64,000 nucleotides of DNA. Origin: Balanoglossus misakiensis (taxonomy: Eukaryota > Animalia > Hemichordata). Shown in pieces: positions 5,065 through 64,000 of the stretch (position 1 is its first letter; each line of letters begins with the position of its first letter). A program made the translations under genes and the position numbers. Under the pieces are notes generated by a model. That model was not told the origin of the DNA, did not search any database, and saw only the letters and a program-made list of their open reading frames with translations. Where the stretch lies: positions 2,299,124-2,363,123 of the forward strand of contig CM082586.2 of the NCBI GenBank assembly GCA_040954595.2, in the 5' to 3' direction.

Positions 5065-8000
5065 ATGGCGGAGTTCATAGGGGACCGTGAACACCTCCTG
5101 CCTAGCGGAGTAAAACGGAAAACAGCCAAGCTCGACAAAATGTCCGCAGCACACGGTAAGTACCGTTCCCGATCACCAAACATCGGGAAATATCTCCGAT
5201 CACCGTAAAATTTTTGGAAAAATTTTATGTCGAATTTGTTCCTTATTATTCCGGTATCAAATTTTGCCCAAAATTTCCTCATTATCTTGCCAGTCGACCT
5301 GTAAAAATCGTGGACAATTTTCGGGTGAATCGTGATCGATAACAAAGGCTGTTCCTCTCGGCGCCTCGCCCGTCTGACTTCCCTGGGAAAATGCTCAGCA
5401 ATGCCGCTTCATGTGCTGGATTTTCTCGATCGTATTTTATCGACAAATCCAAATTTTTCGTGCCAATGTCTTTATTCTTCAGCGCCACTCTTTCGTGACT
5501 ACTAATGTAGCAAAATTACCTCGATTTTGCCCGGGGATATTGTTCGAAAAGGCGACAATTTTGCAACAAGGTTGCTAGTGCACTGTTGTACGGGGTCCGC
5601 AAAATGCTGGCTGCAGCGTGGCGTTGTTCTGCAGAAAGCTTAGCGTCATCGCGTGATGATGATGGCGTGTATGGCGGTGGTGGGCTGGCTGGCTGGCTGG
5701 CATGGGTGTGTGCGGAGCGTTACATTCAGCTCGGCTTTTGCGTGAACGTAGCTCCGGCACTTGAACAGTCAGGGTCGGTGTCCAATGAGCACGTCTCAAC
5801 GCGAACGGCGGGTCGCGGCTAATATCGAACCCCGGGTTTTTCTGACGCTCGCTCACGCGAAGTATTTACTGGGTGGTGTTCCCTCATTTTGTGTGGGTGA
5901 ACCAGCGACACGATACGCTTTTTCTCCCCGTCAAATTTTCCTCGTAGTCTTGTAAATCACTCAGGAAAGTTCCTGTGTGCGCGCTATCGGCTGTACATTA
6001 CTGAAATGTACAGTTTTTCTCTCGCGCTCGTTAGCAGTAAATGTAATGAGGGAGAGCCATGGTGCGTACGGGTACGGGCCCGTCGATTTAATTTTTAACC
6101 GGTGCGCGGGCTTTCACCCGGAGATTCTTAACGCTCGTATCTCACACCCTTCGTACTGGGGACGCGGGAAGAGAAAAGTAGCGGAGGTTTTGTGCGACGT
6201 AGCTACCCATTTTAGCTCGGGGGGTCTTCTCTTATTGACGGGGAGAGTTACTCAGCCTGCGGCCCAATCTCTCCCTCCCCAAAGTACATTAAAACTGATA
6301 GGATTATGTCCAGGGAAGTTATTCAAGTTTGACGCCAGTTCTTATTTCTAACCAAGGGTCTCTATGATAAACTGAAAGTTTTATAAAAAGTTTATTTTTA
6401 GATTACATGTCCATTACCAATTTATTATAAAATATTCATTTTTTTAAAATAAAATTTCTTGTGCCCGAGTTTCTACCTACCCAACTCATTTTCCAACATT
6501 TCTCAAGAAAAAAAGTAAAAGAATTTGTTTTGGTTAATAAATATTAATTCTGAACTTGACAGACTTGTCTGTTTTGTGTTGTTTTGTTTACAAGATCAAG
6601 TCAGACAGTTTATAATTCACAGGTGTTTTTAATAGCAAATTACTTTATTGCCAGTTTTTGGATTCATTCCCTACTTGACAGAAAAAAGTGAATACAACCA
6701 CTACAGATATATAATTGGCAACGCAATATGTAAATTAGAAGGGACCAAAGTACACAATCAACAATGACCCTTGGGAGTGAACTTTAGCCCTTACTGCCCT
6801 CTGTTCTCAGTTCTTGGATTGGCTCTGGTGTGAAAATGTACAAAATATAAAAATCTTGACAAAATAAATTTATGGAATATGGATCAAATGAAATCAATGA
6901 CTATGCATTAAATATCCACTTGCAGCAAATCCTAGTTGTCATAGCAACAGTGATGATGAAGATGAGTTTTTCACTTGTTACTCTCAACTTCAAATTGCGA
7001 CACAAAGTGATTGTGAGAAAAATATGGAAAGTAATGAAAAAGGTATCATGCCATCTGTTTTTAAATGTCAAAATAATTGTAAGGGATAAAAGTTTTTAAA
7101 TTATCAATTGAAATTTTATATGTTTTGTTTGTCACAAAAATAATGTCACAGTTTTGAATATATGATTATAAAGTTCTCTAACGACTTAAAAAAAAGTTTA
7201 CCTACTAACTCTATATATGTCAAAAACTTAATTATAAATATATTTCATTCATTTTTGCGGGAATACATAATGATTTGTTAAATGAGTTTTAAAACACAGT
7301 GAAAAACAACCTGTACATTATCATGTTTGTGTAATTTTGTGTCATTTATGTTGTTTAATTCTTTTTTAAGTCCGACCCACACTGTAGTAAAAATGTTTAT
7401 AAATTTAAGTGTAAAGTTTCTGATATTTTTTTTTGCATTTTATTTTTGCGGATTATTTCTGTGACCAGTGGGAGTGTTTTCTCAGACAATGTGTGTATCT
7501 ACATGTTCAGTGAAACCTATCTAAACTTCTTAAAAGACATTTCCCCTTTTGTCTCCTGCAGGAAAGAAGAGGAAGGCAGCTCCCAGCAATGAGGAACATG
7601 TCAACGGCAAGATTGATCAACCGGTCTCAGCCAAGAAGGCAAAAACTGGTGAGTTCTTGAGAGTAACAGTAGTGCAAAAAATCATATAATGCTCGCGTTA
7701 AAAATAACTTAGCTGTGCCTTAACCACTACAGTGGTAGCATTCTTTTGGCTGTACAGTATCAGTGTGCAAGGTATCTCTTCCTTGATTTGTGTCTCTTTG
7801 ATTCAGTGTTTTGCTGTTTTGAATTGACATACACACATTATCTGTACAGCCAATATTAAATTACTGAGGTTCATAGTTCTGGTGCAACATTGCTTAGTAT
7901 GTCATCAGTCTCCAAACCCTCAAACATTCACCCATTGCAGGTACGATTAATTAGTACTGGGATATCAGTAAGGCATTCATTTATCTTGACAATCGTTTCC

Positions 8001-11000
8001 TTACATTTTCATTTTAACTCTAGACGAATGGAGTGTTGAGCAGAAACTGTCACTTCTTCAGAGGGTGGAGAGTCAGATTCCATCTGACGACATCAACTCT
8101 TTCAAGACTAGGATCTCTAAACTCGACTGGGACAAAGTGAAATTCGAACGATATACGAGCGATGAGTGCAAGGAGCACTTCACCGAACTTCTGAGTGTAG
8201 TGAGTTAAATACTGCCCTCTGGTAACTGTGAAGGAATCAGTGATGTGGACTGCAGAGGGTGCTATTACTAAATAAAATTGATATTGAGCTTATCAGTACT
8301 GTTGGTGTACGATTGATTGTCCGTGGTTATGTTTGAATGTATAATGTTTCATTCCAACAGAGGGAAACATTAACTTGTTTATTTTGTAGGTGAGAAAACA
8401 CAGAACATTGCAAGAACTTTGTAAGGATGCTGAAGATTTGGTCAAGAACCCTCAAGTTAAGGGGAAAAAGGTACAGCATTTTTTCCTATTAAAAGTGTCA
8501 ACAGAATTCAAGTCAACTTTCTGAAATTATGAAGTCTGCTCTGCCACCTTAAGCATCAATGATTTTCTGATTTCCCTAAGCACAGTAACATCACTGACAA
8601 TTGTCTTTTTCCGTACCATCCCACAGCAAACTCATCCAGACATGCCTAAAAAGCCATTGACACCATACTTCAAATATTACATGGACAAACGAAAGAAAAC
8701 CATGGAGGATAATCCTGAAATGAGCGCGCCAGAAATTAGTCAACTTGTCGCCCAACAGTACAAGATACTAAGTGAAAAGAAAAAGGTATATATAACTTGT
8801 CTACATTTAGACTTCTTCAGTAACATCAAGTTGAACATCATATTATGACAATTTGATAAGGCTCTACAGTATCCGTGTGCAAGGTATCTCTTCCTTGATT
8901 TGTGTCTCTTTGATTCAGTGTTTTGCTGTTTTGAATTGACATACACACATTATCTGTACAGCCAATATTAAATCACTGAGGTTCATAGTTCTGGTGCAAC
9001 ATTGCTTAGTATGTCATCAGTCTCCAAACCCTCAAACATTCACAAAAAGGGAGTGTTTTACTGTAGGAATGATAAAGTAAAACACATTGTTTTATGCTAG
9101 TTTATTTTTCTTTCAGTCAAAGTATGTCAAAAAGTATGGTGATGAAATGAAGGACTATCAAAAACTTATCGAAAAATTCAGGTAAGTTTTATGACTTTGT
9201 GTTGGTATTGATAGTACTGAACGTATTGAGATTACTGCAAATGTTAGCATGTTCTTGACAGTACAATAAATAGTGTTTGATACAACATTATTGAATTTGC
9301 TTACAGACAAGATCACCCAGAGTTTGCTGTTGGTAATAGCTCATCCAGAAAGTCAACTGATCCTGTGAGAAAACCGACTACACCAGTACAGGCCTATCTC
9401 AACACCAAGAGAGATCATCTCATGAAAACCAATTCAGAGGTAAAAACTGATACTCCATTTTTGTCAAAAGAGGTGGAGAAACTTTCCCATCAGTTTTAGC
9501 TTAAAAATAGCCTTGAAATGAAAGATTGAAATAGTACCGGTATTATTTATTTGTGAATTCAGCTCAGCAAGAGGGAAGCAGAGGAAAGTCTGAAAGCCCA
9601 ATGGAAGGGTCTGACAGAGAAGAAGAAACTTCTGTACATCAGATCTGCCTTGGACGATTTCAAACGATATGCGGTAAGTCTATCTCTGCTGTGCTTAGCA
9701 GGCCATATGGCAAGACAACTAAGAAAATACTATTTACTACTGGTAGAAACAAGTGATTAAATAACTTTGATGATTAACTTAGTGGATTTTGTGTTGGTCC
9801 AACCAGGCAATTGTAAACATTTAACTTCTCTGTATTCCCTTCACAGAAAGAGCTTGCTGAGTATCAGAAAAGTCACGCAGACTACCAACCAAAGGTCACT
9901 AAGTCGGTGTTGACCAAAGAGGAACAGAAGATACTGGACCGAGCTCTGGGTAAACCTGAAAAACCACCAGCGTAAGTAAAGGCTGAACTCTAACTTCAAG
10001 GCACTGTGTAGACTGATATTTGTTCTGATAAGCTTATATAAGTGTTGCCCCTTTAAAAAGACAAGCTTTGATTGTTTTTTACCTGCAGGAGTGGATACAG
10101 CCTGTTCTGCAGTATTCTGATGCACAATGACCTGTCCCATATCCCAAGCCAAGAGCGAATGGCCGAATGCAGCAAGAGATGGAAAACCCTGTCGCAGCAG
10201 GAAAAGAATGCCTACCAGGAGAGGTGTATCCAGGTGATTTATAACTGCATCATTTTTAAGACCAGAGGGGTCATTGCAGAAAGTGAGAAAGTGTGGTTTG
10301 TGAGATTGTTATTTTCATCTATGAAGGATAAATAAAAATTCAATGAATGACAGAGAAGATTAATCAATGATCAGACCGGATATTCACTGTTTAACTTTGT
10401 GTTGTTCAGAAACAAAGCACATAAACGTTTGTTAGCTATTAAAAGACCTATGATATTTATTCTGCTAAAGTAATATCACTAATTATAGCTTCAGGCTGTT
10501 AAATTTATCAAGTGTATTCAAGATTTGTATACACAATTGGGTCACAAGAAGGCCAAGAATTTAATTGGGAAATTTCATTTAAGTAACGCTGTTAATGAAA
10601 TAACCCCGGGCAGATATATCAAGATTTGTACTTGCCACAACATGAGAAAATTAATAAAAGTAGCAAGTTTATGATGCAAGTGTTTCAAATCTTCTGCTGA
10701 TCGGCCTTAGGCTGTATTGAGAGAGTTTTGCATTCCATCTTGTCATTTCTCATTTTATTTCATTTGGCGGCTAATTTGAGAAATTGTTAGGAAAGGAGCG
10801 AACAAGAATAAGTTAATGAGATATGACATGATATGACGTCAATACTTGGATTCCCGGCATCCGATACAACCCACACCACTTGAGAAAGACAGGATACATT
10901 TTCTCGCTTAATGATTGTAAATGAGGTCAAATTCAACAAGTGAATAAGCAAAAAATCGTGGCAGGTGCAACTTGGTTGCTGTTTCCATGGCGACCGAACT

Positions 11001-17008: not shown

Positions 17009-17174
17009 ATATAATTCCCCCGTATTCCTCACTCGTGTACCTGCGTCGCGAACTCGTGATTCCCCGTATAGCTGTATCCCTCCTCGCCTGCGGCTCGGAA
17101 GGATACGGCCGCTATACGGGGAATCACTCGTCCGCGACGCAGGCACACTCGTTCGAAATACGGGGGAATTATAT
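17009..17174. mobile_element. ~165-bp imperfect palindrome, probably the end of a non-autonomous (Crypton-like) DNA element
   Basis: Arms atataattcccccgtatt/aatacgggggaattatat, cctgcgtcgcg/cgcgacgcagg and gtgattccccgtatagc/gctatacggggaatcac. Central ctcgcctgcggctcg. Family assignment is from recollection. Confidence 0.5.
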
Positions 17175-22200: not shown

Positions 22201-25200
22201 ATCAGACTGAACGTCATTAATTCAGAGCCTGGGGCGGTGATCGTGGGGATATGTTACTATTCGGATATTATATCGCTTTTCTAACTATGTTAAATCAAGT
22301 ACATATTGGATGCATACAGAAGTTTTAGAACTGTCTTAGAAGTGTGTGTGTAGCACCCTCAAGGGACCGCGTAATACAGAAAAACTGAAATGTCAGCTGC
22401 AAATTAAACAAATATCAGCACGCCCTCTGATGCTACCTGTTTGATCTCCTCGTGTCCTGACATTTCAAAAACAGTCCATCGCAGTGACTTATTGTACCAA
22501 TGGGGCGCCTGTCAACAGAGAGATCATGACGTTGCTTTACGTTTCCATTGCCTATTGCTGAGACTGCTTATAACTGTAATCGGGTTGTATGATAAACGCA
22601 GCTTCAGTCCCTTCTCGTGGGAAGTAATAAAAATCAATCACGACATCTAACGTTAGAGCAACAGGATTAGTTAAACCCCCGTATCGACATATTTTATTTA
22701 TTTCTACTGTCAAAAATATCGTTATTAATAATTAACAGTGCCCCCATCCCTGCACAATAACATCATTTTTGGATGCTCACCAATAAATTATTTACGCTAA
22801 TATTAACCAATGACTTTCTTGTACGTGTAAACACATATATTAGCATTGGGTGGAATAACATGCAATGCCATAACTTATACGTGAAGTGGCCGCGATTGAG
22901 CTTTTAAAGATCTTAGATTTATGATAAGTAGGTCGTGTGGTACGTGTTACGCTTCTGGTCGTGGAGAGTTGATGCACTTTTCTGGGAACCTGGTCGGGTG
23001 AAGTTCCGATTTAAGATTAAATGGTGTCGCGTATCGACGTAAATGGTACATTTTGGCCAAGTTGCTGCCGGCATCAAAATTACAGAAAAAACTCCGACGT
23101 AATAAAGACTCGTTAAGCCTCATATTGTAGCAGTCACCAGAACACTTACACTAACACTCTATTAGGTATAACGAAGCACGTATGCGTGTACGTTCTAGCT
23201 TGGAGCTGAGCGCTCACCTACAATATAAATGTCTATGAGTAGCCACAGGCGATGCAAAAGACAGTGTGTCATCTTGCAGCGGCTGTAAATTTCCGCTGTA
23301 GTTTTAGTTCAAGGGAAGATTAAGCACGCAACGTCTTCCCTCGGGGTATTTCATCGGGGCCATCAAATCCGAGTCCGAACAAAATGCAATTCCAACTGGA
23401 TCTTTAGCACTTGTAAATCTTAGTCCCCATGACACGTGATTCTATCCACGGAAAAGGGGACAGCTCGAATTTTAGTTGAATGAAAAGCAAACCGTCCTCT
23501 TCAGCTTGACTTGCAGAATCGTTTTATCTGTGTTGGTCGTTTAAGCTTATTCCCACGAGGAAACACACAAATAAAAATAAAGAATTGCATCGACACTCTG
23601 TTTTTTTTCTGGCTTTTACATCTAGTAATCGTAAAACAGAAGAGGTTGACTTTGAGGACAGCGAAGTTCATTACAGGTTGACACGTGTAGGCCATAAATC
23701 ATGTCCAGCAGTGACCTTGAACTACATGTCCCCGCATATTCCCGAAAGCTTTAGTGACTCTGCTCGCCTTGGTGATTGATAGGCAGAGAGCAAGTTTCTA
23801 ATAACACGTCCGATTTATCATTCAACTCTACATTTCTCATTGTCATGCCCACAGTTCTATTTTGTCAAGCGCAGCAAGAAATTCAATCTCAACATAGTGT
23901 AACGGTCCATCGATTTCCTGGTCGACTGGAAAGTCATCGTTGTATTTTAGAGTCTATCTATCTGATCAATCTATCTGTCGACCAGGCAGCCACCCGACCG
24001 AACAACCAACCGAACAACCAACAATTAAACCAACCAACAATTAAACCAACCAACCAACTAATCAATCAATCAGATCATCTTTCAGATATCGATATATGAA
24101 ATAGAAGCCCAGTAATACCTATTCATCAATTTAGACTACCGTTGTGAGCCACGTATTATATCTTACAATACAAATGATTCTAAACTCCCCTCCTCTCCCT
24201 GATCCTCCACAGATCGGCCTGGACGACTGGCTTGATTCACACGTCAATAAAGCCTCCATCGGAGTGAGGACCGGCGTACCACCTCGCGGTGTCACGCTCG
24301 TGTCAACGGATCCAGACAACTACAAACTATACGGCTATCAGCGAACCGCATTCTTCAACCAGCCATGTGTGGAGAAGATGCTGAGAGACACGCTGGAGCG
24401 GCATGACAACGTCAAAGTGAACCTTGGCTGCGAGGTATGTGTCCCTTTTGGATTCCGATATCACTGACTATACATCGCTCGCGGCCGTCACAAGCCGAGA
24501 TGAAAACAACGTGCAGTGAAACTTAGTGTGCTAGCTTCACTTTTACGAAGAGTTTTTGCTTACAATCATCGAGGCCTTTATGTCTGTCTTTTGATTCCTC
24601 CCCGGTCGCCATGACGACACGCCATCGCAAAGAAAAGCTTATAATCTGATCACTAAAAACTACTAGTAATGATGTTTCAGTTTACAGGAACCGGTCTAAG
24701 TTTGAAAGTGGGGTCATGAAAATAACGCTAAATGGCAAATATTGGGGATTTTAACTTCTTCCCTCTCTCTGCAGGTTGTTGCTGATACAACCGATGGAGA
24801 CGGCGTGTTGGTTAAGGTACGAAACGGTGTCCACAAAGCAACAGAAACCTACCGTTGTAAGTACATGCTGGTCTGTGAGGGCGGACGGAGCTCAACGCGG
24901 AAAAGACACGGTTTGAAATTTCTAGGAAGTTCATTCAGTAAGTATGAGCTCACCTGTAGCCGGCTAACGGGCATCTTCGCTTGTCAGGTCTTGCTCTCAG
25001 AGGGTCGAGTCAGCGATCCGTGCGAGTGGACAATGGCGAACGGGGACGTCTGCAGGTCATTCCGTCTTTGCAAGCATCAACAAGCGTAAGGTGTGAATAA
25101 TAAGTCGATAATTAAGTCCCACCTGTTACTCACAGACAAAGGAGGTGTGATTCTTCCTAACGTTTCGAACGTACACGACCGAGCTTCGTCAGAGGCTATT

Positions 25201-40740: not shown

Positions 40741-41083
40741 ATACTCTTAAGCGAGAAAGAGAACTATAAATTCTGTCTGAAAACGAAAGAATAAACATAA
40801 ACGGGCGCTGTCATCAACAGTGGAAAGAAAGGACTACGACAATGTAGTTTTCAATATGGAAATATGTTTATTTAAACGCCCATAAGGGATATATTTACAA
40901 AATATATACATTAAATATCTAAAATAAGTTTGTTTTACAAAGACATGTCATTTCAAAGACATTTCACTTATCATAAAATTAGAAAAGACAACGAAAGTGC
41001 AGGTAGCTGTTCGAGTTCAACCAGTGCGATGTTGATCTTGCATGTATACAACTGAAATATATATGATTAGCGTCAAATATTGT

Positions 41084-54051: not shown

Positions 54052-54408
54052 ATTGTTGTCCTATATTTGCTAAATTCGTGAATTTCCAATGTGTGACATA
54101 GGGGGCGCTGCAACTCTAGGACCAATTCGTCTGAGGCGCATAGTTGTCTCCGTCTCTCATGTGGTTATGGGCTCGCAGAAGCCGTAAAACATAAGCGCAT
54201 TTTGGAGTTGTTTAGTTGTAAATGTGCAAACAGTCAGTGTACTGTATGTGCTATTAACCGAGCCCGAATCGGATGAATGTAAATTTTATTCTGTTGGTTA
54301 CAAAATACATTGCCTGGGAGTGGTAATAATAATAATATTGCAAGTTATCACGCTGTAATGGGCCAGGAAATTATAAAGACATAATGATTTTTTGTTAGTT
54401 CTTCAGGA

Positions 54409-54705
54409 TCACGTGCTTTCCAGGCTGGATTTCCTTCGGAACAAACTAAGAACTCCGATTGCTACCGTCAGAATTACGGCGAAGGAACCGATGAGCGACG
54501 TGACGGCCATTTCCAGTAAAAACATGATAGTGTAGTACGTCGTCGACTGGTGCGGTTCGAACTTTTTCCATGCGGTGTGAGCGACGTCGACGAGTGGTTG
54601 TGAGGCGGTCGGAAGCGCATCGATACATCTCACGAGGAATAAGTTCGTCACTTGGATGGCGACGGCTGCGTAGACCAACACAGCAGTTGCGATTTTCGGT
54701 AGCAT
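54409..54705 (-). CDS. Small single-exon type I membrane protein (98 aa)
   Basis: aacATG start, signal-peptide-like N-terminus ending IDA-LP, long hydrophobic helix, then RRK stop-transfer. GC-rich, coding-like composition. Confidence 0.5.
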   Translation of the reverse strand: MLPKIATAVLVYAAVAIQVTNLFLVRCIDALPTASQPLVDVAHTAWKKFEPHQSTTYYTIMFLLEMAVTSLIGSFAVILTVAIGVLSLFRRKSSLEST

Positions 54706-56212
54706 GTTTCCGTCGATGACTTGCTAGTTAATTCCAATCGCTTGGTTCCAGGCGAGGACAGCGTACCACGACCGTGTCCTCAGTGCTTACTACCTTCCAA
54801 ACTAGCCGCAGCTCAGCTGTAATGTCTCTGTGTGTATGACATAGGGTTACTCAGTTTTACTAGTATTTACAACAATCCTAACCTGACGCTTAATCGACGA
54901 ATCGTGTAATGCCTACAATATAAAAAAACTTCTGACAAATGATCCGCCAGGTATATGGATTCATCAACTAGAGGTGAGGGCTCCCAGCCTCTCGAAAATT
55001 CATTTTTTCGAGATGGACGGCTGTTTGTGTCCCTGTCCCTAACTATGATGAGAAAAATGTACTGACAAAGTGCCAATAGCTGCGGTCAAAGTTCATTCGT
55101 TGGAGTACGATCGATCAGACGATACATCCAAATCAGTGCAAAGATCGCGAACCGTTTAGGAGGTTTGCGTGTTGGAGGGGGAGGGGGATTCTCGGATATC
55201 CCCTCAAGAGGTTCGTCATTCCCCATTTACAAAATAGGTTGACTTCTTGTTCCCCAGAGTCAATGTCAATGCCATGAACGCGTGTCGCGGATGACCTCGG
55301 GTTAATGCGACAGCAAGTTGGAAGTTTAAAGTCCGAAAACAGGCTGAGATCGTGTTTTCACCTGGACAGAATGCTACTACAGCCACAGAATGAATGATTT
55401 TAACACTTCACAATTAAACTGCTCATCATATTACAAAACCTACCCCAAAACCAGACAGGTGAATACAGGCACGACACCAAGCGAAGGAGAACCCCTAACG
55501 CTTGCCAAAATAAGGTCTTCTCGACCCTTTTCACGCAACAATAGGCGGATAGTTGGCCTTTGACCAAGCGATATGTTTAATGATAAGAAATAATGCAGCA
55601 AACAGCACTGAATGTCCTTCACCCTACTTCTCCCAAAATCTACAGCAGCCCCCTGTCTTTCTGTACGTACGGGACTTGAATAGACGTAGATTGATGGCGC
55701 TGTTCGCGGAACCTCTCAACTTTTGACCCGACAGACAAACCTTGGACACAATCCACATGCCCTACATAGATAGTATATATAATAGTAGGCAGTGCGTGGA
55801 GGGTTATTTTGACGCATGCATATCATGAACGTTAATGTCCTTCGATGAACGGGGGTGTGTGAGTAGCCGCAATTGTGTTTGTAGCATTAAACGACTGTAT
55901 TGTCAGAACAAGGGTTTATAGTCTGTGCTGCCGTGGTGACGTAAGCTAGGTTTAAACCCCTAGGCTAGTGCCACGTTTTGCACCGTCATCTGAAATACTA
56001 AAACATATACTACACTATGTCCGCCAAGGCCAAACATTACGTATGATGTCGACCCCGATCTCCGATATTTGCATAACAACTGTCTGCGTAACCAATAAAC
56101 TACTAGTGCCAAAGGTGGTCATTACAGTGTATTCGCTCCGCCGTTTCATAGTCTCGTCTATGGTCACTGCTAACGCTCCCTGAAGCTAAGACTGACCCCA
56201 GTGCAATTGAAC

Positions 56213-56959
56213 ATGGCAGCGATCGCCACACTTTTAAACAGGGCAGTCATATGCAGACTGTCTAAGCGGTGGCTGACAGTACTGTTGACGCGGCAGAAGA
56301 GCTGTAACGTCCGAAACGTGTGCCGACCAGCCGCTGTCGTCCCACCTCGACAGTTCCCCACGTATGTCTACAGCCAGCGCAAATGGAGTTCTTCGGCAAC
56401 AAAGAGTGACGACGAAGTCGTGTCTTTCGTGCAGCAAGCTGAAAAGGTCGACCAGCAGCGGGAGCTTCGGGTGAAGTGGGGTGACGGCTTTGAAAATGCG
56501 TACCCGTACGTCTGGCTTCGCGACAACTGTTTCTGTCCATCATGCTACCAGGCCGACGCCCGGTCACGCTTGCTGACCATGGAAGACCTCGATGTGGATA
56601 TCCTGGCGTCTGATACGGCACTGTCCGAAGACGGCCAGAGCTTGACCGTCTACTGGCCGGACGGTCACCAGAGCACTTTCACCTCGGTGTTTTTGAGAGG
56701 CACTGTGTTCGAAGAGAGAAGACCCAAGAAGAACGTCCAACTTTGGGGATCAGAACTGTTGAGGGACTTGCCAACTTTCTCGTTCCAAAAAATGCTGACA
56801 GATGACCGGGTATTGCTGCAGTGTCTGGAAACGCTCAGAGATGTCGGTCTTATACTGATGAAAAATGTACCTCTGGAGACGGGCCAGGTGAAAAGGATGG
56901 CCGAGAGGATTTCTTTCCTACGTGTGACCTCTTATGGGTATGTACATTTGTGAATATTA

Positions 56960-57045
<86 letters not shown>

Positions 57046-59396
57046 TTCTCTCTCTCTCTCGCTTCCTCACTCACTCATTCACTCTCCCTCTCAGATGACA
57101 GTGAACGTGCAAAGCTATAAAATACATCACACCCTCTGTAATTTTTCCTAACCAAAACTCAACACGACTAATGCCAAGAATATTCTCGAGCAAAATGATC
57201 ATAGATCAATACTGTCCTTGGTTGTGAAGGTATGACGTGAATTATTGCACTTCTAATGAATATTAATGAAAAAGGGTATCATACATCAAAACACCCATAT
57301 CAGATATAACTCGATGGAAGGACAATAGTGTACATTGTATAGTGTAATCGCAGAGAACATGTCCAGCGAGACAAGACTGGAGCAGACCGGCCTTCACCTT
57401 AAAGACACAACATGCTGATAATATATAAGATATGACCACGTAGTGTGAAGGGGTTATTAGCACACGTTAACCCCTTAACCGATCACATGCTCTCACGTGG
57501 TGAAAGCACCTTCACCTTGCAATATACACCCATAACACCCCTCACCTGGTCACGTGCGGTATAACACCCCTCCACCTAACACCATAACAAACACATGCCA
57601 ATCTCTTCAGAAGACACGGCATATTTTCGCATTTTGAACAACATTGGTACAAGCACGCACGGGAGATGTTACTATCATTTTTGTTACTGACGTCACACTA
57701 ACACGTATTTCAGGCGAGCATCAAAAGTCTCTATGCATTCCCATATACATGTATATAGGGTGGCGAGGTCAAACTTCGACAACAAGGACCACATATCCAA
57801 GAAAATATGTAAAACATGCAGTGAAGTGTGTATAACACTGTGCCTGTAAACCTCGGAGGAGTACACCCCGAGCGTGCGGGTTCCCTCTAATTAACCTTTT
57901 TTTCTTAGGTAGGCCTAAGGTAAGTATGCAAAGTGTCGATTAAGACATTATGCATGCACGGGAGACAATCATGACGTATAGTCAATTTCAGGGACAGACT
58001 CATTTCTTCCATGGTACGTTGATGTACATGTATCCTGATTATCATAATTTGACACTCAGGTAAGTGCCAGCATTTCATGTGTCTCCATCACATGTAATCA
58101 AGTCACGCATACTGCACACATTCCAACCCAGATCCACTGTTTATTCTGACTCTACCAAACTCAGGTTTCAGAGGAGGTGGTGGAAACCTACATTCATATT
58201 GTTATTCATTTCAGGGCTGAATTTACTGTAAAAAGCAAAATTGAGCCGTCAAACCTTGCCTACACTGGAGCTAAGTTAGCACTGCATCAGGATTTGCCTT
58301 TCTACGAACACATGCCATCGGTAAGGTCAAATTCCCACTAAAATTGGTCAAGAGTTATGGATTGCTACTTATAGACAGCCCTGTTAATAACAAAGTTACA
58401 GAAACATTGTTTACTTTACCGAACGACAGGCTTTTGTGAGATATTCAAAATGGCTGCCACACGCCGGTATTCGATACCACAGCGCAGCCAACGGTGTAAT
58501 TGGGACAGGGTCACGTGCCTTTTCGACACGATCATACCGCTCAGTTATGAGAAAACAAACACACGGGCAAGTGATTCAAGTATTTAAATTCTCACGCCCC
58601 TCTTTCTCTTTCCTGAACTCAGATTCAGTTTCTTCACTGTATTTATCAGTGTGAGGGCGAAGGGGGCGACAGTGTGTTCAGTGACGGCTTCAAGTGCGCC
58701 CTCCAGCTCAAACGAGAAGATCCAGAAGCCTTCGACATTCTATCCAACACCTACATCAACTACATGGACATCGGAAATGACTACGTCCCGTTTCATACAA
58801 AAAGCGCACAAAAAGTTTTCCAGTAAGTTATAGAAAACAACTCTGAAAATTAGGTTAACTTTATTACTGTAGGCCTACCAGTAAAATAAATTGGTTTCTG
58901 CCCTGTTTAGATTCGACCAATTCGGTGAACTGTATATGGTCCGATACAACAATGCCATGCGAGACATCACTCTGCCAGTACCAAGAGAAAAAGTGTACAA
59001 GTATTACAGAGCCTTAAAGGCCTACAACAACATCCTTAACAGTCCAGAGAACAGCATCGCCTTTAATATGCAGAATGGTGAGTGATCGTATAAACATTGA
59101 GCTGTCGGACATTCGCCAGTTTCCGCGCGGTCACTCCATCATGGGGAAGGCCCTCGCTTTCATGCATAGTGACATACATGATTTCTTCATCAAAACATCA
59201 TTTTTCTCTTTCGTTTTCTCTTTAAGGAGACATGGCGGTCTTCAACAACATCAGAGTGTTACACGGCAGAACTGCTTTCATCAACAACGCTACATCCGGA
59301 GAGCGCCACCTAGAGGGAGGTTACATCGACTGGGATGACGCGCACTCCAGAATTCGAGTGCTCAGAGCAAACTTTGGATTGCCGATCCAAGATTGA
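56213..59396 (+). CDS. BBOX1: Gamma-butyrobetaine dioxygenase-like, isoform A (exon 1 + cassette A), 455 aa
   Basis: Exons 56213-56937, 58215-58320, 58623-58822, 58911-59077 and 59227-59396. Zn-domain WLRDNCFCPSC...WPDGHQS; LHQD; NIRVLHGR; RHLEGGYIDWD. AATAAA ~59730. Confidence 0.88.
56964..57060 (+). repeat. (CT)n microsatellite
   Basis: Long TC dinucleotide run just after the BBOX exon 1 donor. Confidence 0.95.
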
Positions 59397-59881
59397 ACAG
59401 GCGTCGTACAAATCCAAGAGAAATGCAAACATAGAATTCATGAACTTGATCAACTTATGAGAACTTTGACAGTTCAGCTCAAAGGGGGGTGCTGGGGGTA
59501 ACGTACGCTATTTGTGCGTGACGCCATTTGCATACGACAACTGAAAAGTTATTAACACAGACGATAACAATTTTGTGAGTTTGATGCCTAGCCATTAAAA
59601 ATTTACCAAGCTCTCTAACTTTAACCTAGTCAAGCGAAATGACACCAGGTATGTCAAGCTCTTGGGTATATTAGGAGCAGGGATACATTCCAGTACTGTA
59701 TATTGTGCATAAACTAGTATTTTTGATTTAATAAATATATTGTAAACATCTACTTCAAAGTCTGTCGTATCTTTTCCATTTTACACGCACAATCTTGGCA
59801 TGAACACATATTGGATTGATACGTACACGGTATGTTGAAAACTATGGTTAACCTATACATTTATCTGTTATTTTATTTCAG

Positions 59882-60919
59882 GCCCTCGTTTAGAGTGAGC
59901 AATAAAGTGAACCCCTCAAACCCTGCGTTCACCAGTCAGAAATTATCACTGCACACGGATTTGGCGCAGTACAATAGGTCACCATCGGTTCAGTTACTTC
60001 ACTGCATTCAACAATTTCTGGGAGAAGGTGGGTACAGTACATTTAGCGATGGTTTGAAGGCAGCTCTTCGCCTGAAAGAAGAAGATCCCGAGGCTTTTCA
60101 CATCCTGACGACAACCTTCGTCGACTACACCGACATCGGAAGTGACTTTCTGCAGTATCACACAGAGGGCGCTCATACTACCATCACGTGAGTAGGCCGT
60201 TTACTTTAATTCGTTTCCCACATGGAGCTACGGTTTCCTGTGAACGACAATGGTAGCGTTGAGCGAAATATTCCCATAAGTTTTCGGCGAACCTGGCTTC
60301 GTTGACTGTGGTATGAGCTATTGTCAACATGGCTCTCATTGGTCAATAAGTACGAGCACGCTGATTGGACGAAACCGTTTTCAATTTCTTCGTTACTTTC
60401 CCTTCGTAGACTTGGAACGTTTGGCGAGATCTCGGAGATACACTACAACAATATGAACAGAAGTATCCGCGTGAGGCTTCCCATAGACCAAGTGCATCGA
60501 TACTACAGTGCCTTAAAGGCCTTTGACAACATTGTACGTCGACCCGAGAACATGATCGAGTTCAAAATGTTTAACGGTAGGTAGAGAATGGTGTTGGCAA
60601 CAGTCTCCAGAACATCTGGCTTCTTGATAAAGTTGCAAAAGTTCAAATTACATATTTTATCGTCCTAATCTAACTTTTTCCACTGGTAACGTGTCTTGAT
60701 TCTGTTTACTTCTTTATTATTTTGGCTCCAGGTGACATGACGGTGTTCGACAACACGCGTCTCGTCCACGGCAGAACGGCCTACACCGATACGGAGACAG
60801 GACATCCAGAGCGCCACCTGGAGGGCGGTTACACAGAGTGGGATGACGTACACTCGAGAATTCGCGTGCTCCGAGCGAAATTTGGATTGCCCGCCAACGA
60901 CAGCGCAAACCGTGCATAA
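59882..60919 (+). CDS. BBOX1: Second complete BBOX catalytic-domain exon cassette (B) with no N-terminal exon of its own; in frame with exon 1 at 56213-56937 (461 aa)
   Basis: Exons 59882-60187, 60410-60576 and 60732-60919 with intact splice sites. LHTD, DNTRLVHGR, RHLEGGYTEWD. AATAAA ~61142 and ~61195. Confidence 0.8.
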
Positions 60920-61631
60920 ATTGCTTGTTTGTTGAATATTCCAAAGCATTTGAAAGTGTGTCACTCTACACAGCCAGGTCGAGTAGACAGACGTCGACAC
61001 GCATGCGTGATTTCTAAGGAATGAAACCATGGGATAAATTACAATTGCTTGCAGCCAGGTCGCTAAACGCATGACCAGACTTTGAGTTAAATTTGAAAAC
61101 AGGACCATACATCATCATCACCCGGTCGTTTTACGTATCAAAATAAAGTCAACGAATGTTGTAGGTTACTCAGCTTTGAAAAGCGCAACCAAGAAAATAA
61201 AGTGAAAATATTTACAACAGTAAGTCTGTGCTCAATAGTCTATATAACTCCATTTCCACCCCGTCACTCCATATCTTGCTATTTGCATGTACACGTCATC
61301 GGTTTATGAGCTACTCGGGGTTCTAGCACTTTTCCTTCGATGTGTATCTGCGCATGCTCAAATCTGAACTGTTTACGAGTTTAGACGTCATCATCTAAAA
61401 ATAGAGAGTTAAATTGAAGATTTTCGATACAAAGAAGGAAACCATCCTTGAGTTATGTCTTATCAGCGTGACCCCGAGTGACCCCACACAACGCGTCACC
61501 TTCTGCGGAACAGCAACACTGGTATCTTCTGCTTTAAAATACAACACTTGAGATTTCTCGAGTACACAGAACTGTATAAATTTCGCCAACGCGCGAGTGA
61601 CGTCTCAGTTTGCAGCAGAACGACCAGCAAC

Positions 61632-64000
61632 ATGTCTGACCCGAACGTCGCTTCAGAGCTGGGACGTCCGAACAACCAACAACACAAGTAAGTGATGTGC
61701 CCTTGCTTCGGCAACTTATCAGGAAATATCGAGCAAAATATATGGATTATATTTCTACAACTTGACAGTGTTAGGCATCTGTACTTTAAAACAATCACTT
61801 TGACTTGTGCCAGGCAAGTTGGCAGTTTACGAGGATAAATTTCACGGTATCGCGAATAGTTACTCATATTCACATGGGTGTCTCTCTCCACAAACACAGA
61901 AGTGTCAAAACACAGGCAAGTGGATTCACAACATGCTGTATGTACGCGTGCGAGCGCGTGCACAATACCGTCCATTTCACCACGAATTAAGTCAACTTGA
62001 CGCGAAGCGAGTTTCCTTGAACGTAAAATACAAACCATTGTTTCAGATGTGGCCATATTTGCTTTGTCACCTGTTAACGCGTGTGTTTTGTTTTTACGGC
62101 CTTAACGACTCAACGCTGGTAACCCCAACCCGCTTTTCGTATATATAGTTATATGGCTTCTGCAATAAATATTGTTTGGATTTTATGACCTCCGCACTCT
62201 TGAAACCAAGGTCGATGCTTTAGTTGTGGTTTCAATGAAGCCTAGCAACACAACATTCGACGAGTGTATGATTACAGAAAGTGACAATTCGGATAAAAAT
62301 ATTTTTTTTCGCCATTGAGACTGACCTCGAAAGATTGCTTTGTTTACTGTTTTCAAATGTCACGTGTAGCCTGCATTAAAATCCTAAAAGTTGCATGGTT
62401 AGTATAGTAAATGCGTGAAACGTCGACCACTGATAGTGCGGAGGCAAATTCCATTTTCTCTGACTAAAATGTCCGATCGGTTTTGATTAATTTGGCTTCT
62501 GTTTATCAGCGACTCGGAGATGGAGTCGGCGGACAAGCGAGAGAGAGATGAACTGTCCATCTTCTGGAAGTTTGTGACCTTGCTCTGCTGTTATCTCTCT
62601 CTGTCGCTTTGCCTGGGTTTGAACTACGGTCTTTGGCCACTCGTCGACGGTCTGCGAGAATTCTACCAGGAATACTACTATGATTCGGATGGTGTCGACC
62701 CGAAGTGGATCGTCTATATAAATATTACAATGACTGGCATTACCGGTAAGCCATGTATTGTATAAAGTATATACGTGTACGGGTGTATACGGACAAATAC
62801 GGTGACAATGCATCTATTTCAATTTTTTGAATGGGATTTCTGATATTTTGGCCAAAACACATTTCACGAAGTTCATTGGTACCATTTTAGCTGTAATATT
62901 GGCACTCATAAAATCACCACAACAAAACAAACATTGTAGTCATGGTAGCAAAACAAACACTGTGGTCATGGAAGCAAAACAAACATTATGGAAGTGTTTT
63001 CCCACGTCTCCATCATGATTTCTTTTTCAGCCTATGTGGCCGTCACGCTGGTGTACAACTTTGAAAATGGTGTCAGGATATCGGCAGTTTGTGGTGCGTG
63101 CTTGTCGACCCTGGGTTTGCTGATCTCCGGCTTCGTGAGGGGCGTAGGAACACTATGCGCCACCTACGGCTTCATTACAGGTAAGGCAACGTGATGCTGC
63201 GTGAGTTGGATTGGATTTCTGGTCCGTACCTGTCGTTTGGGACAAAATCTGATGCGAGCACTAAGGCCAAAAATTCGGGAGTATTCTCTTGGCCAGCAAC
63301 CGTACAGCGATCGAAGATGGATCGCTAATAATCTGTTCTTTTCTTGATTTGGCATTTAGGTCTCGGGTATGGATTGCTGTTAACACCCACCATAGGGCTG
63401 ATACCCATCTATTTCCCCACACGCTACACTTATTACAATGCAGTGGCCTTCTCGGGAACGAGCCTGTGCATTTTCTACGTGCCGGCGTTGTTTGATTACG
63501 TCACCGAGGTGTACGGGCTACATTCCATGTTCGTGATTCTCGGTTGCTTGAACGCTCAGTTGGTCTTCGTCGCCTTCCTCTTTCCTCCAATGAAGCATTT
63601 CTTAATGGCGTCTTCGCACGAGCGCCGCCAACGAATCACCAGAGCGTTCGCGCTACTGAAGGCCTCCCTGGCAGAGTCTGACCGTCCACTGTTCAGTACC
63701 GTCATAGCGTCCATGTTCCTGATCGGTGTCGGCTACAACATTCTGTTGTTGCATCTCCGCCAGTTCGCCGTGTACAACGGGACCAGTGCCGCGGATGCAG
63801 CGACTGTCATGACCGTGTGCGGGGTTTTCATGATCGTTGGTCAGCTTCTCCACGGATATCTGACGTTCACCAAGAGAGTCGAACGAGATGAACTGTCTTA
63901 CAGGCGTTTCTGTTATTCGATGGCTCTGATAGTGGTTGGTCTGGCTGCCTTGTTCAGCTCCGTGGCGGAATCCTTTGCAGGACACGCGGCCTTGGCTGCC
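61632..64000 (+). CDS. Monocarboxylate transporter (SLC16/MCT, MFS) family, 5' part
   Basis: Exons 61632-61687, 62510-62745, 63031-63180 and 63360 to window end. LCATYGFITGLGYGLLLTPTIGLIPIYFPTRYTYYNAVAFSG...YGLHSMFVILGCLNAQ matches the SLC16 TM4-TM6 pattern. Confidence 0.8.

What the first reader, a model, noticed from the sequence alone, without database searches (positions are those of the whole stretch)
56213..60919. One BBOX gene head, two swappable catalytic halves: tandem alternative C-terminal exon cassettes
Seen in sequence: only one N-terminal exon exists (56213-56937; Zn-binding domain, ends TAT GG|gt, phase 2). Two complete catalytic-domain exon sets follow. A has 106+200, 167 and 170 nt; B has 306, 167 and 188 nt. 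Both begin with a phase-2 acceptor at the homologous codon (G-AEFTV vs G-PSFRV), keep HxD...H and RHLEGGY, and have their own stop and AATAAA. The 485 nt between the A stop and the B acceptor cannot hold a 725-nt exon 1. The last exons differ largely at synonymous sites, suggesting both are under selection. Residues near the predicted substrate pocket differ (NLAY/HQD/NNAMRD vs NPAF/HTD/NNMNRS). Inference: alternative splicing/polyadenylation yields two 2-oxoglutarate dioxygenases with shared targeting and dimerisation domains but different specificity, a mirror image of the UGT1A or protocadherin layout, possibly allowing A/B heterodimers.
Basis: partly seen in the sequence, partly recalled or inferred. 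Interest (0 to 1): 0.78.

Follow-up and report, generated by a model that had tools for sequence, protein, structure and literature searches.

The report
Two enzyme genes sharing one head
In a genome closely related to acorn worms, one first exon of a carnitine-pathway-like enzyme gene is followed by two old, intact catalytic back halves; RNA joins it to the first half, and it likely also joins the second, so two once-separate genes have probably merged into one gene that would make two enzymes.

Summary
The layout is real: one 725-nt BBOX-like first exon (E1), then cassette A (4 exons) and cassette B (3 exons). Both are in frame with E1, 55% identical, and have their own stop and AATAAA. One run with spliced contigs shows E1->A and two other A junctions, and covers B's last exon and 3' UTR. 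E1->B was not seen, so the key junction is unproven. New here: A is sister to a Ptychodera flava gene that has its own (frameshifted) head, and an A+B clade is rejected (p=0.01). The cassettes are therefore most likely the tails of two older whole genes, one of which lost its head, and dN/dS 0.21 does not show present use of B. B still keeps 22 of 22 near-invariant residues, clean splice sites, and at most 1 change in 306 nt between haplotypes whose flanks differ. Best reading (0.6): alternative splicing and polyadenylation, A shown, B inferred. Corrections: cassettes hold about two thirds of the catalytic domain, and only 1 of 7 named pocket residues differs (Y194F). The layout is a known kind (fly pip and CG42235, MASP1/3, GNAO1).

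The parts
56213..56937 (+). Exon 1 (shared head): about 65-aa basic leader with no acidic residue (likely mitochondrial presequence), Zn domain (C106, C108, C111, H152), first third of the TauD domain, ending at the Tyr177 equivalent; phase-2 GT donor
   Evidence: (PF06155, E 5e-13); spliced to 58215 in run X3
56953..57093 (+). (CT)n microsatellite just inside intron 1; contigs are cut there
58215..58320 (+). Cassette A exon 2 (106 nt; HQD iron ligands)
   Evidence: E1->A2 joint in X3
58623..58822 (+). Cassette A exon 3 (200 nt)
   Evidence: A3->A4 joint
58911..59077 (+). Cassette A exon 4 (167 nt)
   Evidence: A3->A4 and A4->A5 joints
59227..59396 (+). Cassette A last coding exon (170 nt, third Fe ligand, 2OG arginines, TGA)
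59730..59735 (+). AATAAA of A; an X3 contig ends at 59750
59761..59881 (+). 119-nt AG-free zone plus acceptor of B exon 2
   Evidence: 5 of 782 plus-strand AG gaps of 25 nt or more reach 119
59882..60187 (+). Cassette B exon 2 (306 nt = A2+A3 without the intron; HTD iron ligands); phase-2 acceptor in frame with E1
   Evidence: no X3 cover
60310..60375 (.). High-copy repeat inside the B2-B3 intron; this intron differs strongly between haplotypes
   Evidence: very high summed depth, loose ends
60410..60576 (+). Cassette B exon 3 (167 nt)
   Evidence: no X3 cover
60732..60919 (+). Cassette B last coding exon (188 nt, TAA)
   Evidence: X3 contig 60766-60967
61142..61201 (+). Two AATAAA of B (61142, 61196); X3 contig 61004-61202

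Best explanation
One first exon is spliced to cassette A and is likely also spliced, past A, to cassette B, so that two tails that probably came from two once-separate tandem BBOX-like genes would now give two 2-oxoglutarate/iron enzymes with one shared head. Shown: anatomy and frames, E1->A splicing, RNA over B's last exon and 3' UTR, and an A/B split older than the split from Ptychodera flava. Inferred: the choice is made by competition between the near A acceptor with cleavage at about 59750, and read-through past that site with use of the B acceptor about 130 nt further on and cleavage after 61196; A would be the default because it comes first. Inferred: one gene of the pair lost promoter and head, and its tail survived because the other head, ending in the same phase, could supply leader, Zn domain and Tyr177. 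Inferred, weakly: both products hydroxylate betaine-type substrates in mitochondria and differ modestly in kinetics or preference. Hybrids that switch at A3->B3 or A4->B4 are also in frame.
For: Three GT..AG joints in run X3, including 56937->58215. X3 contigs at 60766-60967 and 61004-61202 stop at B's second AATAAA, with no cover in the bins from 61233 on. No second head in the window and no E1-like DNA between A and B. B departs from 0 of 22 columns conserved at 90% and 3 of 38 at 80% among 187 homologues (median 2), and keeps His-Asp-His, both 2OG arginines, N191, N292 and Y366 equivalents. A dead B would lose its frame or splice sites with a half-life of about 0.5-0.9% neutral divergence. 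The X2 haplotype also lacks a head before B (contig 59664-60087) and has at most 1 change in B2's 306 nt, against at least 5 in the 218 nt to its left and a replaced 111-nt stretch starting 11 nt past its donor (one-sided Fisher p=0.048 left flank, 0.002 both flanks). The B acceptor has a 119-nt AG-free zone, a trait enriched at alternative human exons (PMC1431707, section 8 read). Origin: A groups with P. flava P0162 (100/94 and 98/95), A+B clade rejected at p-AU 0.0098; P0162 has its own head, read out of frame in its model (48% over 58 aa, E 5e-7).
Against: No E1->B, B2->B3 or B3->B4 joint was found in the one run with spliced contigs (16 contigs laid). dN/dS 0.21 is expected under a recent loss of the head as well. 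The haplotype test is weak: against all listed non-coding pieces p=0.09; long unchanged non-coding stretches exist nearby (X2 contig 60554-62276 has 4 changes in 1,723 nt); 7 changes in the right flank are unplaced and some could lie in B3; only 40 of 85 difference rows were shown. B has a longer branch than A (0.43-0.47 against 0.26-0.28). The AG-free zone has about a 4% chance among 7 acceptors. No database protein with a shared head and swapped tail was found among 286 homologues. No docking/selector pairing was found. The case for different specificity rests on one conservative change.
Confidence: 0.6

Rival explanations
1. B is the recently beheaded tail of a tandem paralogue and makes no useful protein; RNA over its 3' end is read-through from the A gene.
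For: A and B descend from older whole genes, so B's intact frame and dN/dS need no present function. No junction into B was seen. Longer B branch. The P. flava sister of A carries a frameshift in its model, so these paralogues may be dispensable.
Against: No trace of a head or its DNA in the roughly 130 nt between A's RNA end and B's acceptor. Haplotypes that differ on both sides of B2 share the layout and barely differ inside B2. 0 of 22 invariant columns changed. The estimated window for staying intact is under 2-4% neutral divergence.
Confidence: 0.22
2. B is used mainly piecewise: transcripts start as E1-A and switch late (A4->B4 or A3->B3), giving hybrid enzymes with an alternative last exon, and full E1->B is rare or absent.
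For: Both switches are in frame and at homologous positions. The only B exon covered in X3 is the last. B4 has an 88-nt AG-free zone. The final 84 nt of the two last exons are 86% identical.
Against: B2, which only E1 can reach in a normal-length frame, is intact and nearly unchanged between haplotypes. No A4->B4 joint was seen. The last exon is not significantly less diverged at third positions (10 of 33 against 36 of 78, p=0.14).
Confidence: 0.1
3. B has its own head that is missing from this assembly or lies outside the window, or B starts from its own promoter.
For: The whole genome is not held. No listed contig spans the whole locus, and contigs are cut at the (CT)n tract. Two in-frame ATGs lie at 59832 and 59844.
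Against: Overlapping contigs tile A's stop to B2 (X1 59254-59586, X3 59557-59750, X1 59646-60198, X2 59664-60087). X1 contig depth is alike at E1 (43), intron 1 (39) and B (40, 44), though the tool warns that depth is no copy number. A product from the local ATGs would lack the Zn domain, a third of the TauD domain and Tyr177.
Confidence: 0.08

Closest known systems
Drosophila 3' tandem cassette genes pip, CG42235 and PGRP-LC (Pan et al. 2018, PMC6191721; abstract and 12 passages read)
   Same: Common 5' exon(s) spliced to one of several tandem multi-exon 3' cassettes, each with its own 3' end; the near cassette is favoured.
   Different: There the cassettes arose by duplication of the 3' cassette and are chosen by docking/selector RNA pairings. 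Here the tails appear to come from older whole genes, there are two cassettes, no pairing was found, and the far junction is not shown.
Human C-terminal tandem-duplicated-exon substitutions, e.g. GNAO1, ZFP64, MASP1 (PMC8373072 and PMC9741552; passages read)
   Same: Homologous C-termini swapped through alternative poly(A) use; 77 of 236 human events are C-terminal; swaps reach about 250 residues.
   Different: Those events have annotated transcripts. Here the swap cuts through one catalytic domain and carries all Fe and 2OG ligands, whereas such regions tend to avoid ligand sites (PMC9741552 passage).
MASP-1 / MASP-3 from the MASP1/3 gene (PMC3701661; passages read)
   Same: One gene, shared N-terminal dimerising part, two alternative catalytic domains.
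   Different: MASP swaps a whole protease domain and both products are proven. Here about two thirds of the domain is swapped and part of the substrate cage is shared.
Human BBOX1 (PDB 3O2G, 4BG1 and others; residues from passages of PMC13257696 and PMC12067446)
   Same: Zn-type N-domain, His-Asp-His, 2OG arginines, N191, N292, Y177 and Y366 equivalents kept in both isoforms.
   Different: W181 is F and Y205 is L in both, Y194 is F in B; there is a 65-aa basic leader; the gene sits in a ptychoderid clade of paralogues, so one-to-one orthology and substrate are open.
Ptychodera flava XP_070534063.1 (P0162) and XP_070534059.1 (P0002)
   Same: Nearest relatives; P0162 tail is sister to A (66.5%); P0002 head is nearest to E1 (61-65%) and its tail nearest to B (59%).
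   Different: Annotated as separate proteins, each with its own head (51% identical over 82 aa); P0162's head is read out of frame in its model. Their genomic order could not be read.

Membership tests
BBOX (gamma-butyrobetaine dioxygenase) | N-terminal Zn domain with CxCxxC...H | tested here: met
   PF06155, E 5e-13; C106, C108, C111, H152; the ligand pattern itself is recalled
BBOX (gamma-butyrobetaine dioxygenase) | Fe triad His202-Asp204-His347 and 2OG arginines 349/360 | tested here: met
   Present in A and B (mapped through alligator P0235; triad numbers from PMC13257696, arginine numbers recalled)
BBOX (gamma-butyrobetaine dioxygenase) | Aromatic cage Y177/W181/Y194 with Y366, and carboxylate contacts N191/N292/Y205 main chain | tested here: inconclusive
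   Y177, N191, N292, Y366 kept; W181 is F and Y205 is L in both; Y194 is Y in A and F in B. All three cage positions stay aromatic.
BBOX (gamma-butyrobetaine dioxygenase) | One-to-one orthology to vertebrate BBOX1 | tested here: inconclusive
   A and B fall in a clade of 6 ptychoderid-type rows (99/98); links between invertebrate clades and vertebrates are unresolved
BBOX (gamma-butyrobetaine dioxygenase) | Hydroxylates gamma-butyrobetaine; homodimer | not testable with these tools
   Needs assay; no complex was folded
3' tandem multi-exon cassette genes (pip / CG42235 / MASP1-3 / GNAO1 type) | Homologous tandem 3' cassettes, each in frame with a shared 5' exon and with its own stop and poly(A) signal | tested here: met
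3' tandem multi-exon cassette genes (pip / CG42235 / MASP1-3 / GNAO1 type) | Transcripts join the shared exon to each cassette | tested here: inconclusive
   Met for A; for B only the last exon and UTR are covered
3' tandem multi-exon cassette genes (pip / CG42235 / MASP1-3 / GNAO1 type) | Origin by duplication of the 3' cassette within the gene | tested here: not met
   A+B clade rejected (p-AU 0.0098); A's sister in P. flava has a distinct head of its own
Docking/selector-regulated 3' variable regions (Pan et al. 2018) | Conserved competing RNA pairings between the shared intron and each cassette | tested here: inconclusive
   Best intron-1 to pre-B pairing scored 19 against a shuffle mean of 21.8; no convincing pair among the 25 of 33 inverted repeats shown; no related DNA for a conservation test
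UGT1A / clustered protocadherin layout | Variable first exons with own promoters, constant 3' exons | tested here: not met
   One first exon, variable 3' exons; layout per PMC8373072 passages

The most novel reading that the evidence does not exclude
Two complete paralogous enzyme genes merged into one alternatively spliced gene by loss of one head. The proven product, E1+A, is a chimera of one paralogue's head and the other's tail; E1+B is the original gene; phase-matched switch points give up to four enzymes (AAA, AAB, ABB, BBB). Ptychodera flava, whose A-type gene has a frameshifted head but an intact tail, shows an intermediate step of the same merger.
Probability: 0.25. Interest if true: 0.72.

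Novelty: new variant of a known kind. Interest (0 to 1): 0.46.

Why it matters
Swappable 3' cassettes are usually explained by partial duplication inside one gene. If E1->B is confirmed, this locus shows the reverse route, in which two whole genes collapse into one splice-choice gene, with a relative that still holds the parts apart. It also gives a natural domain-swap test in the BBOX fold (same head, two tails 55% alike) for asking what the many BBOX-like paralogues of marine invertebrates act on. If B is dead, it is an ordinary paralogue remnant.

Tried and rejected
No whole genome is held, so other BBOX-like genes of this animal and the P. flava gene order could not be read. The run search listed 3 runs of one sample and no RNA holder on record; X3 is treated as RNA because it shows three GT..AG joints. 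X3 has no cover of B2 or B3; contigs drop rare forms, so this blank is not evidence either way. Homologue search with B2 against longer proteins: 0 of 256 candidates passed. Search for short relatives of P0002: 1 of 154 candidates, an unnamed 46% hit. Screen of 286 held proteins for shared head with swapped tail: none of that kind. Docking/selector pairing: none above shuffles. Gene conversion in the last exon: not significant. Which paralogue E1 came from is unresolved: 64.6% to P0002 against 54.9% to P0162, 18 against 10 sites, tree support 77/88, p-AU 0.16 for E1+P0162 and 0.09 for E1+P0002. A pooled Poisson test of haplotype differences (p=0.006) was set aside because differences are clumped. 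Leader trans-splicing onto B2 was rejected: B2 holds no Met. Rfam: 0 matches in the window. No structure or complex was folded; fit of E1 to B and heterodimers stay open. Literature: 10 searches used; none listed a BBOX cassette gene (butyrobetaine+duplication+invertebrate, 2 papers; hemichordate+butyrobetaine, 2 papers with 1 listed; Ptychodera+dioxygenase, 2 papers; tandem duplicates/gene fusion/loss of first exon, 0 papers). The library lacks most subscription journals, and no supplements were read; the supplements of PMC6191721 and PMC8373072 may list more such cases. Earlier scan notes held nothing on BBOX.
Full report
Observation. The anatomy is as described. E1 (56213-56937) ends in phase 2; cassette A (106, 200, 167, 170 nt) and cassette B (306, 167, 188 nt) both open with a phase-2 AG acceptor at the homologous codon; all splice sites are GT/AG. 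E1+A gives 455 aa and E1+B 461 aa. The tails are identical at 117 of 213 residues, with dN 0.34 and dS 1.65, and their introns do not align. One head exists in 64 kb by tblastn and by a profile search of 2,821 six-frame peptides. The 485 nt between A's stop and B's acceptor hold no E1-like DNA, and most of it is A's 3' UTR: an RNA-type contig runs to 59750, just past the AATAAA at 59730.

The cassettes are not whole catalytic domains: B2 begins at TauD profile position 86 of 267, and E1 ends at the equivalent of human Tyr177, which is part of the substrate cage (PMC13257696, passages). In the last exon 13 base differences fall in unchanged codons and 31 in changed ones; selection shows only per site. 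Of seven substrate-contact residues named for human BBOX (Y177, W181, N191, Y194, Y205, N292, Y366; PMC13257696 and PMC12067446, passages), A and B differ only at Y194 (Y against F). HTD is the form in human, P0002 and P0162, so A's HQD is the derived one.

Assembly. Three runs of one sample hold the stretch. Overlapping contigs tile from A's last exon into B2 (X1 59254-59586, X3 59557-59750, X1 59646-60198, X2 59664-60087), and X1 contig depth is similar at E1, intron 1 and B (38-44). No listed piece spans the whole locus and the tool warns that depth is no copy number, but a collapsed second head is unlikely.

RNA. Run X3, labelled 'DNA?', shows three GT..AG joints: 56937->58215, 58822->58911 and 59077->59227. 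E1->A is thus shown. X3 also covers 60766-60967 and 61004-61202, that is most of B's last exon and its UTR up to the second AATAAA, with no cover in the bins from 61233 on. No joint into or within B was listed among 16 contigs laid (8 of 20 pieces shown). Contigs give no strand and drop rare forms, so this leaves E1->B open. Besides full B, the switches A3->B3 and A4->B4 are in frame.

Relatives. The nearest proteins are Ptychodera flava BBOX-like models, which places the window among enteropneust hemichordates by inference. In trees of the tails, A is sister to P0162 (XP_070534063; 100/94 with 36 rows; 98/95 with 18 of those rows). An A+B clade is rejected (p-AU 0.0098), A+P0002 is rejected (0.006) and B+P0002 is not (0.45); site patterns run 8 to 0 for A=P0162 with B=P0002. 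P0162 lacks the Zn domain in its model, but its residues 9-66 match the window's E1 in a shifted frame (48%, E 5e-7), so that gene has its own head with a frameshift, either real or an assembly error. The two P. flava heads are 51% identical over 82 aa, less than E1 is to P0002 (65%), so two heads probably existed before the species split. The simplest history is two whole tandem genes with one head lost in this lineage. E1 leans to P0002 (65% against 55%; 18 against 10 sites), which would make E1+A a chimera, but trees do not settle this (77/88; p-AU 0.16 and 0.09), and decay of P0162's head could give the same lean. An amphioxus model that jumps from the E1 end to the A3 start (P0006) suggests that A keeps an old intron which B lost (inference).

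Is B alive? The history above means dN/dS cannot answer this. Other tests lean to yes. B departs from 0 of 22 columns conserved at 90% and 3 of 38 at 80% among 187 of 287 held proteins that cover the tail (median 2; 67 of 187 have 3 or more). A neutral B would break with a half-life of about 0.5-0.9% divergence, while listed non-coding pieces differ by 1.3% between the window and the X2 haplotype (47 in 3,490 nt). That haplotype also has no head before B and differs at no more than 1 of B2's 306 nt, against at least 5 of 218 nt to the left and a replaced stretch 11 nt past the donor (p=0.048 and 0.002). Against this: versus all listed non-coding DNA p=0.09, differences are clumped, 45 of 85 rows were hidden, 7 right-flank changes are unplaced, and B's branch is longer than A's. 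B's acceptor has a 119-nt AG-free zone, reached by 5 of 782 gaps; such zones are enriched at alternative human exons (PMC1431707, section 8), a weak hint.

Mechanism. Best reading (0.6): the E1 donor takes the near A acceptor and the RNA is cut at about 59750; in some transcripts cleavage is passed over, the donor pairs with 59882 and the RNA is cut after 61196. The head gives a basic leader (12 Arg/Lys and no acidic residue in 65 aa; mitochondrial targeting is an inference), the Zn domain and Tyr177; the tail gives all Fe and 2OG ligands. Human BBOX is a cooperative dimer (PMC12067446, passages), so mixed dimers are possible but untested. Rivals: recently beheaded remnant with read-through (0.22), late-switch hybrids only (0.10), missing head or own start (0.08).

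Comparison and novelty. Shared 5' exons with tandem multi-exon 3' cassettes are known: fly pip (10 cassettes), CG42235 and PGRP-LC (PMC6191721, abstract and passages), human GNAO1 and MASP1 among 77 C-terminal swaps (PMC8373072, PMC9741552, passages), and MASP-1/MASP-3 with two catalytic domains (PMC3701661, passages). It works like these if E1->B is confirmed. It differs in the inferred origin from whole genes and in cutting through the catalytic domain. My searches listed no BBOX case, within a library that lacks most subscription journals. A cnidarian preprint (10.1101/2024.10.30.621027, passages) shows that substrates of other invertebrate TauD-domain proteins are unknown; PMC7764450 and PMC4729200 were read in passages for background only. 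Verdict: real feature, new variant of a known kind, key junction unproven; interest 0.46.

Noticed in passing
P0162 (XP_070534063.1), residues 1-71: The start of this P. flava model is an out-of-frame reading of a BBOX Zn-domain exon, so the deposited gene has a frameshift (mutation or assembly error) while its tail keeps all 22 near-invariant residues.
   Followed up: partly
window 41079-41700 (-) and 44226-44847 (+): Two divergently oriented single-ORF RING-finger genes (PF13920), 88% identical in their 3' 620 nt, with less similar 5' parts.
   Followed up: partly
window 7748-7931 and 8860-9043: A 184-nt direct repeat, 98% identical, on both sides of an HMG-box exon in a UBF-like gene (gene name by recall); no Rfam match.
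   Followed up: partly
window 17009-17174: Imperfect palindrome of about 166 nt (79% self-complementary).
   Followed up: no
window 52025-54723 (-): Several ORFs (158, 270, 129, 109 and 104 aa) upstream of the BBOX-like gene with no Pfam match; the 104-aa one has a hydrophobic, signal-like stretch.
   Followed up: partly
window 60310-60375: Short high-copy repeat in the B2-B3 intron, also carried by unrelated X3 contigs; the intron differs strongly between haplotypes.
   Followed up: partly
window 61632-64000 (+): A multi-exon membrane-protein gene starts about 430 nt after B's poly(A) signal; it looks like a monocarboxylate-type transporter by eye (label recalled; the one 81-aa piece scanned had no Pfam hit).
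   Followed up: no
P0001 (CAH1250468.1, Branchiostoma lanceolatum): A 642-aa model with two identical copies of the BBOX N-half, a sign of tandem BBOX arrays or mis-joined models in amphioxus.
   Followed up: no
window 23898-24041 (+): Weak 30-aa match to the BBOX N-half profile (E 0.009) near FAD-monooxygenase exons; probably chance.
   Followed up: no
window 58644, 59044, 59056: Three of five listed allelic differences in cassette A exons change the residue (Y285N, P389S, I393V).
   Followed up: partly
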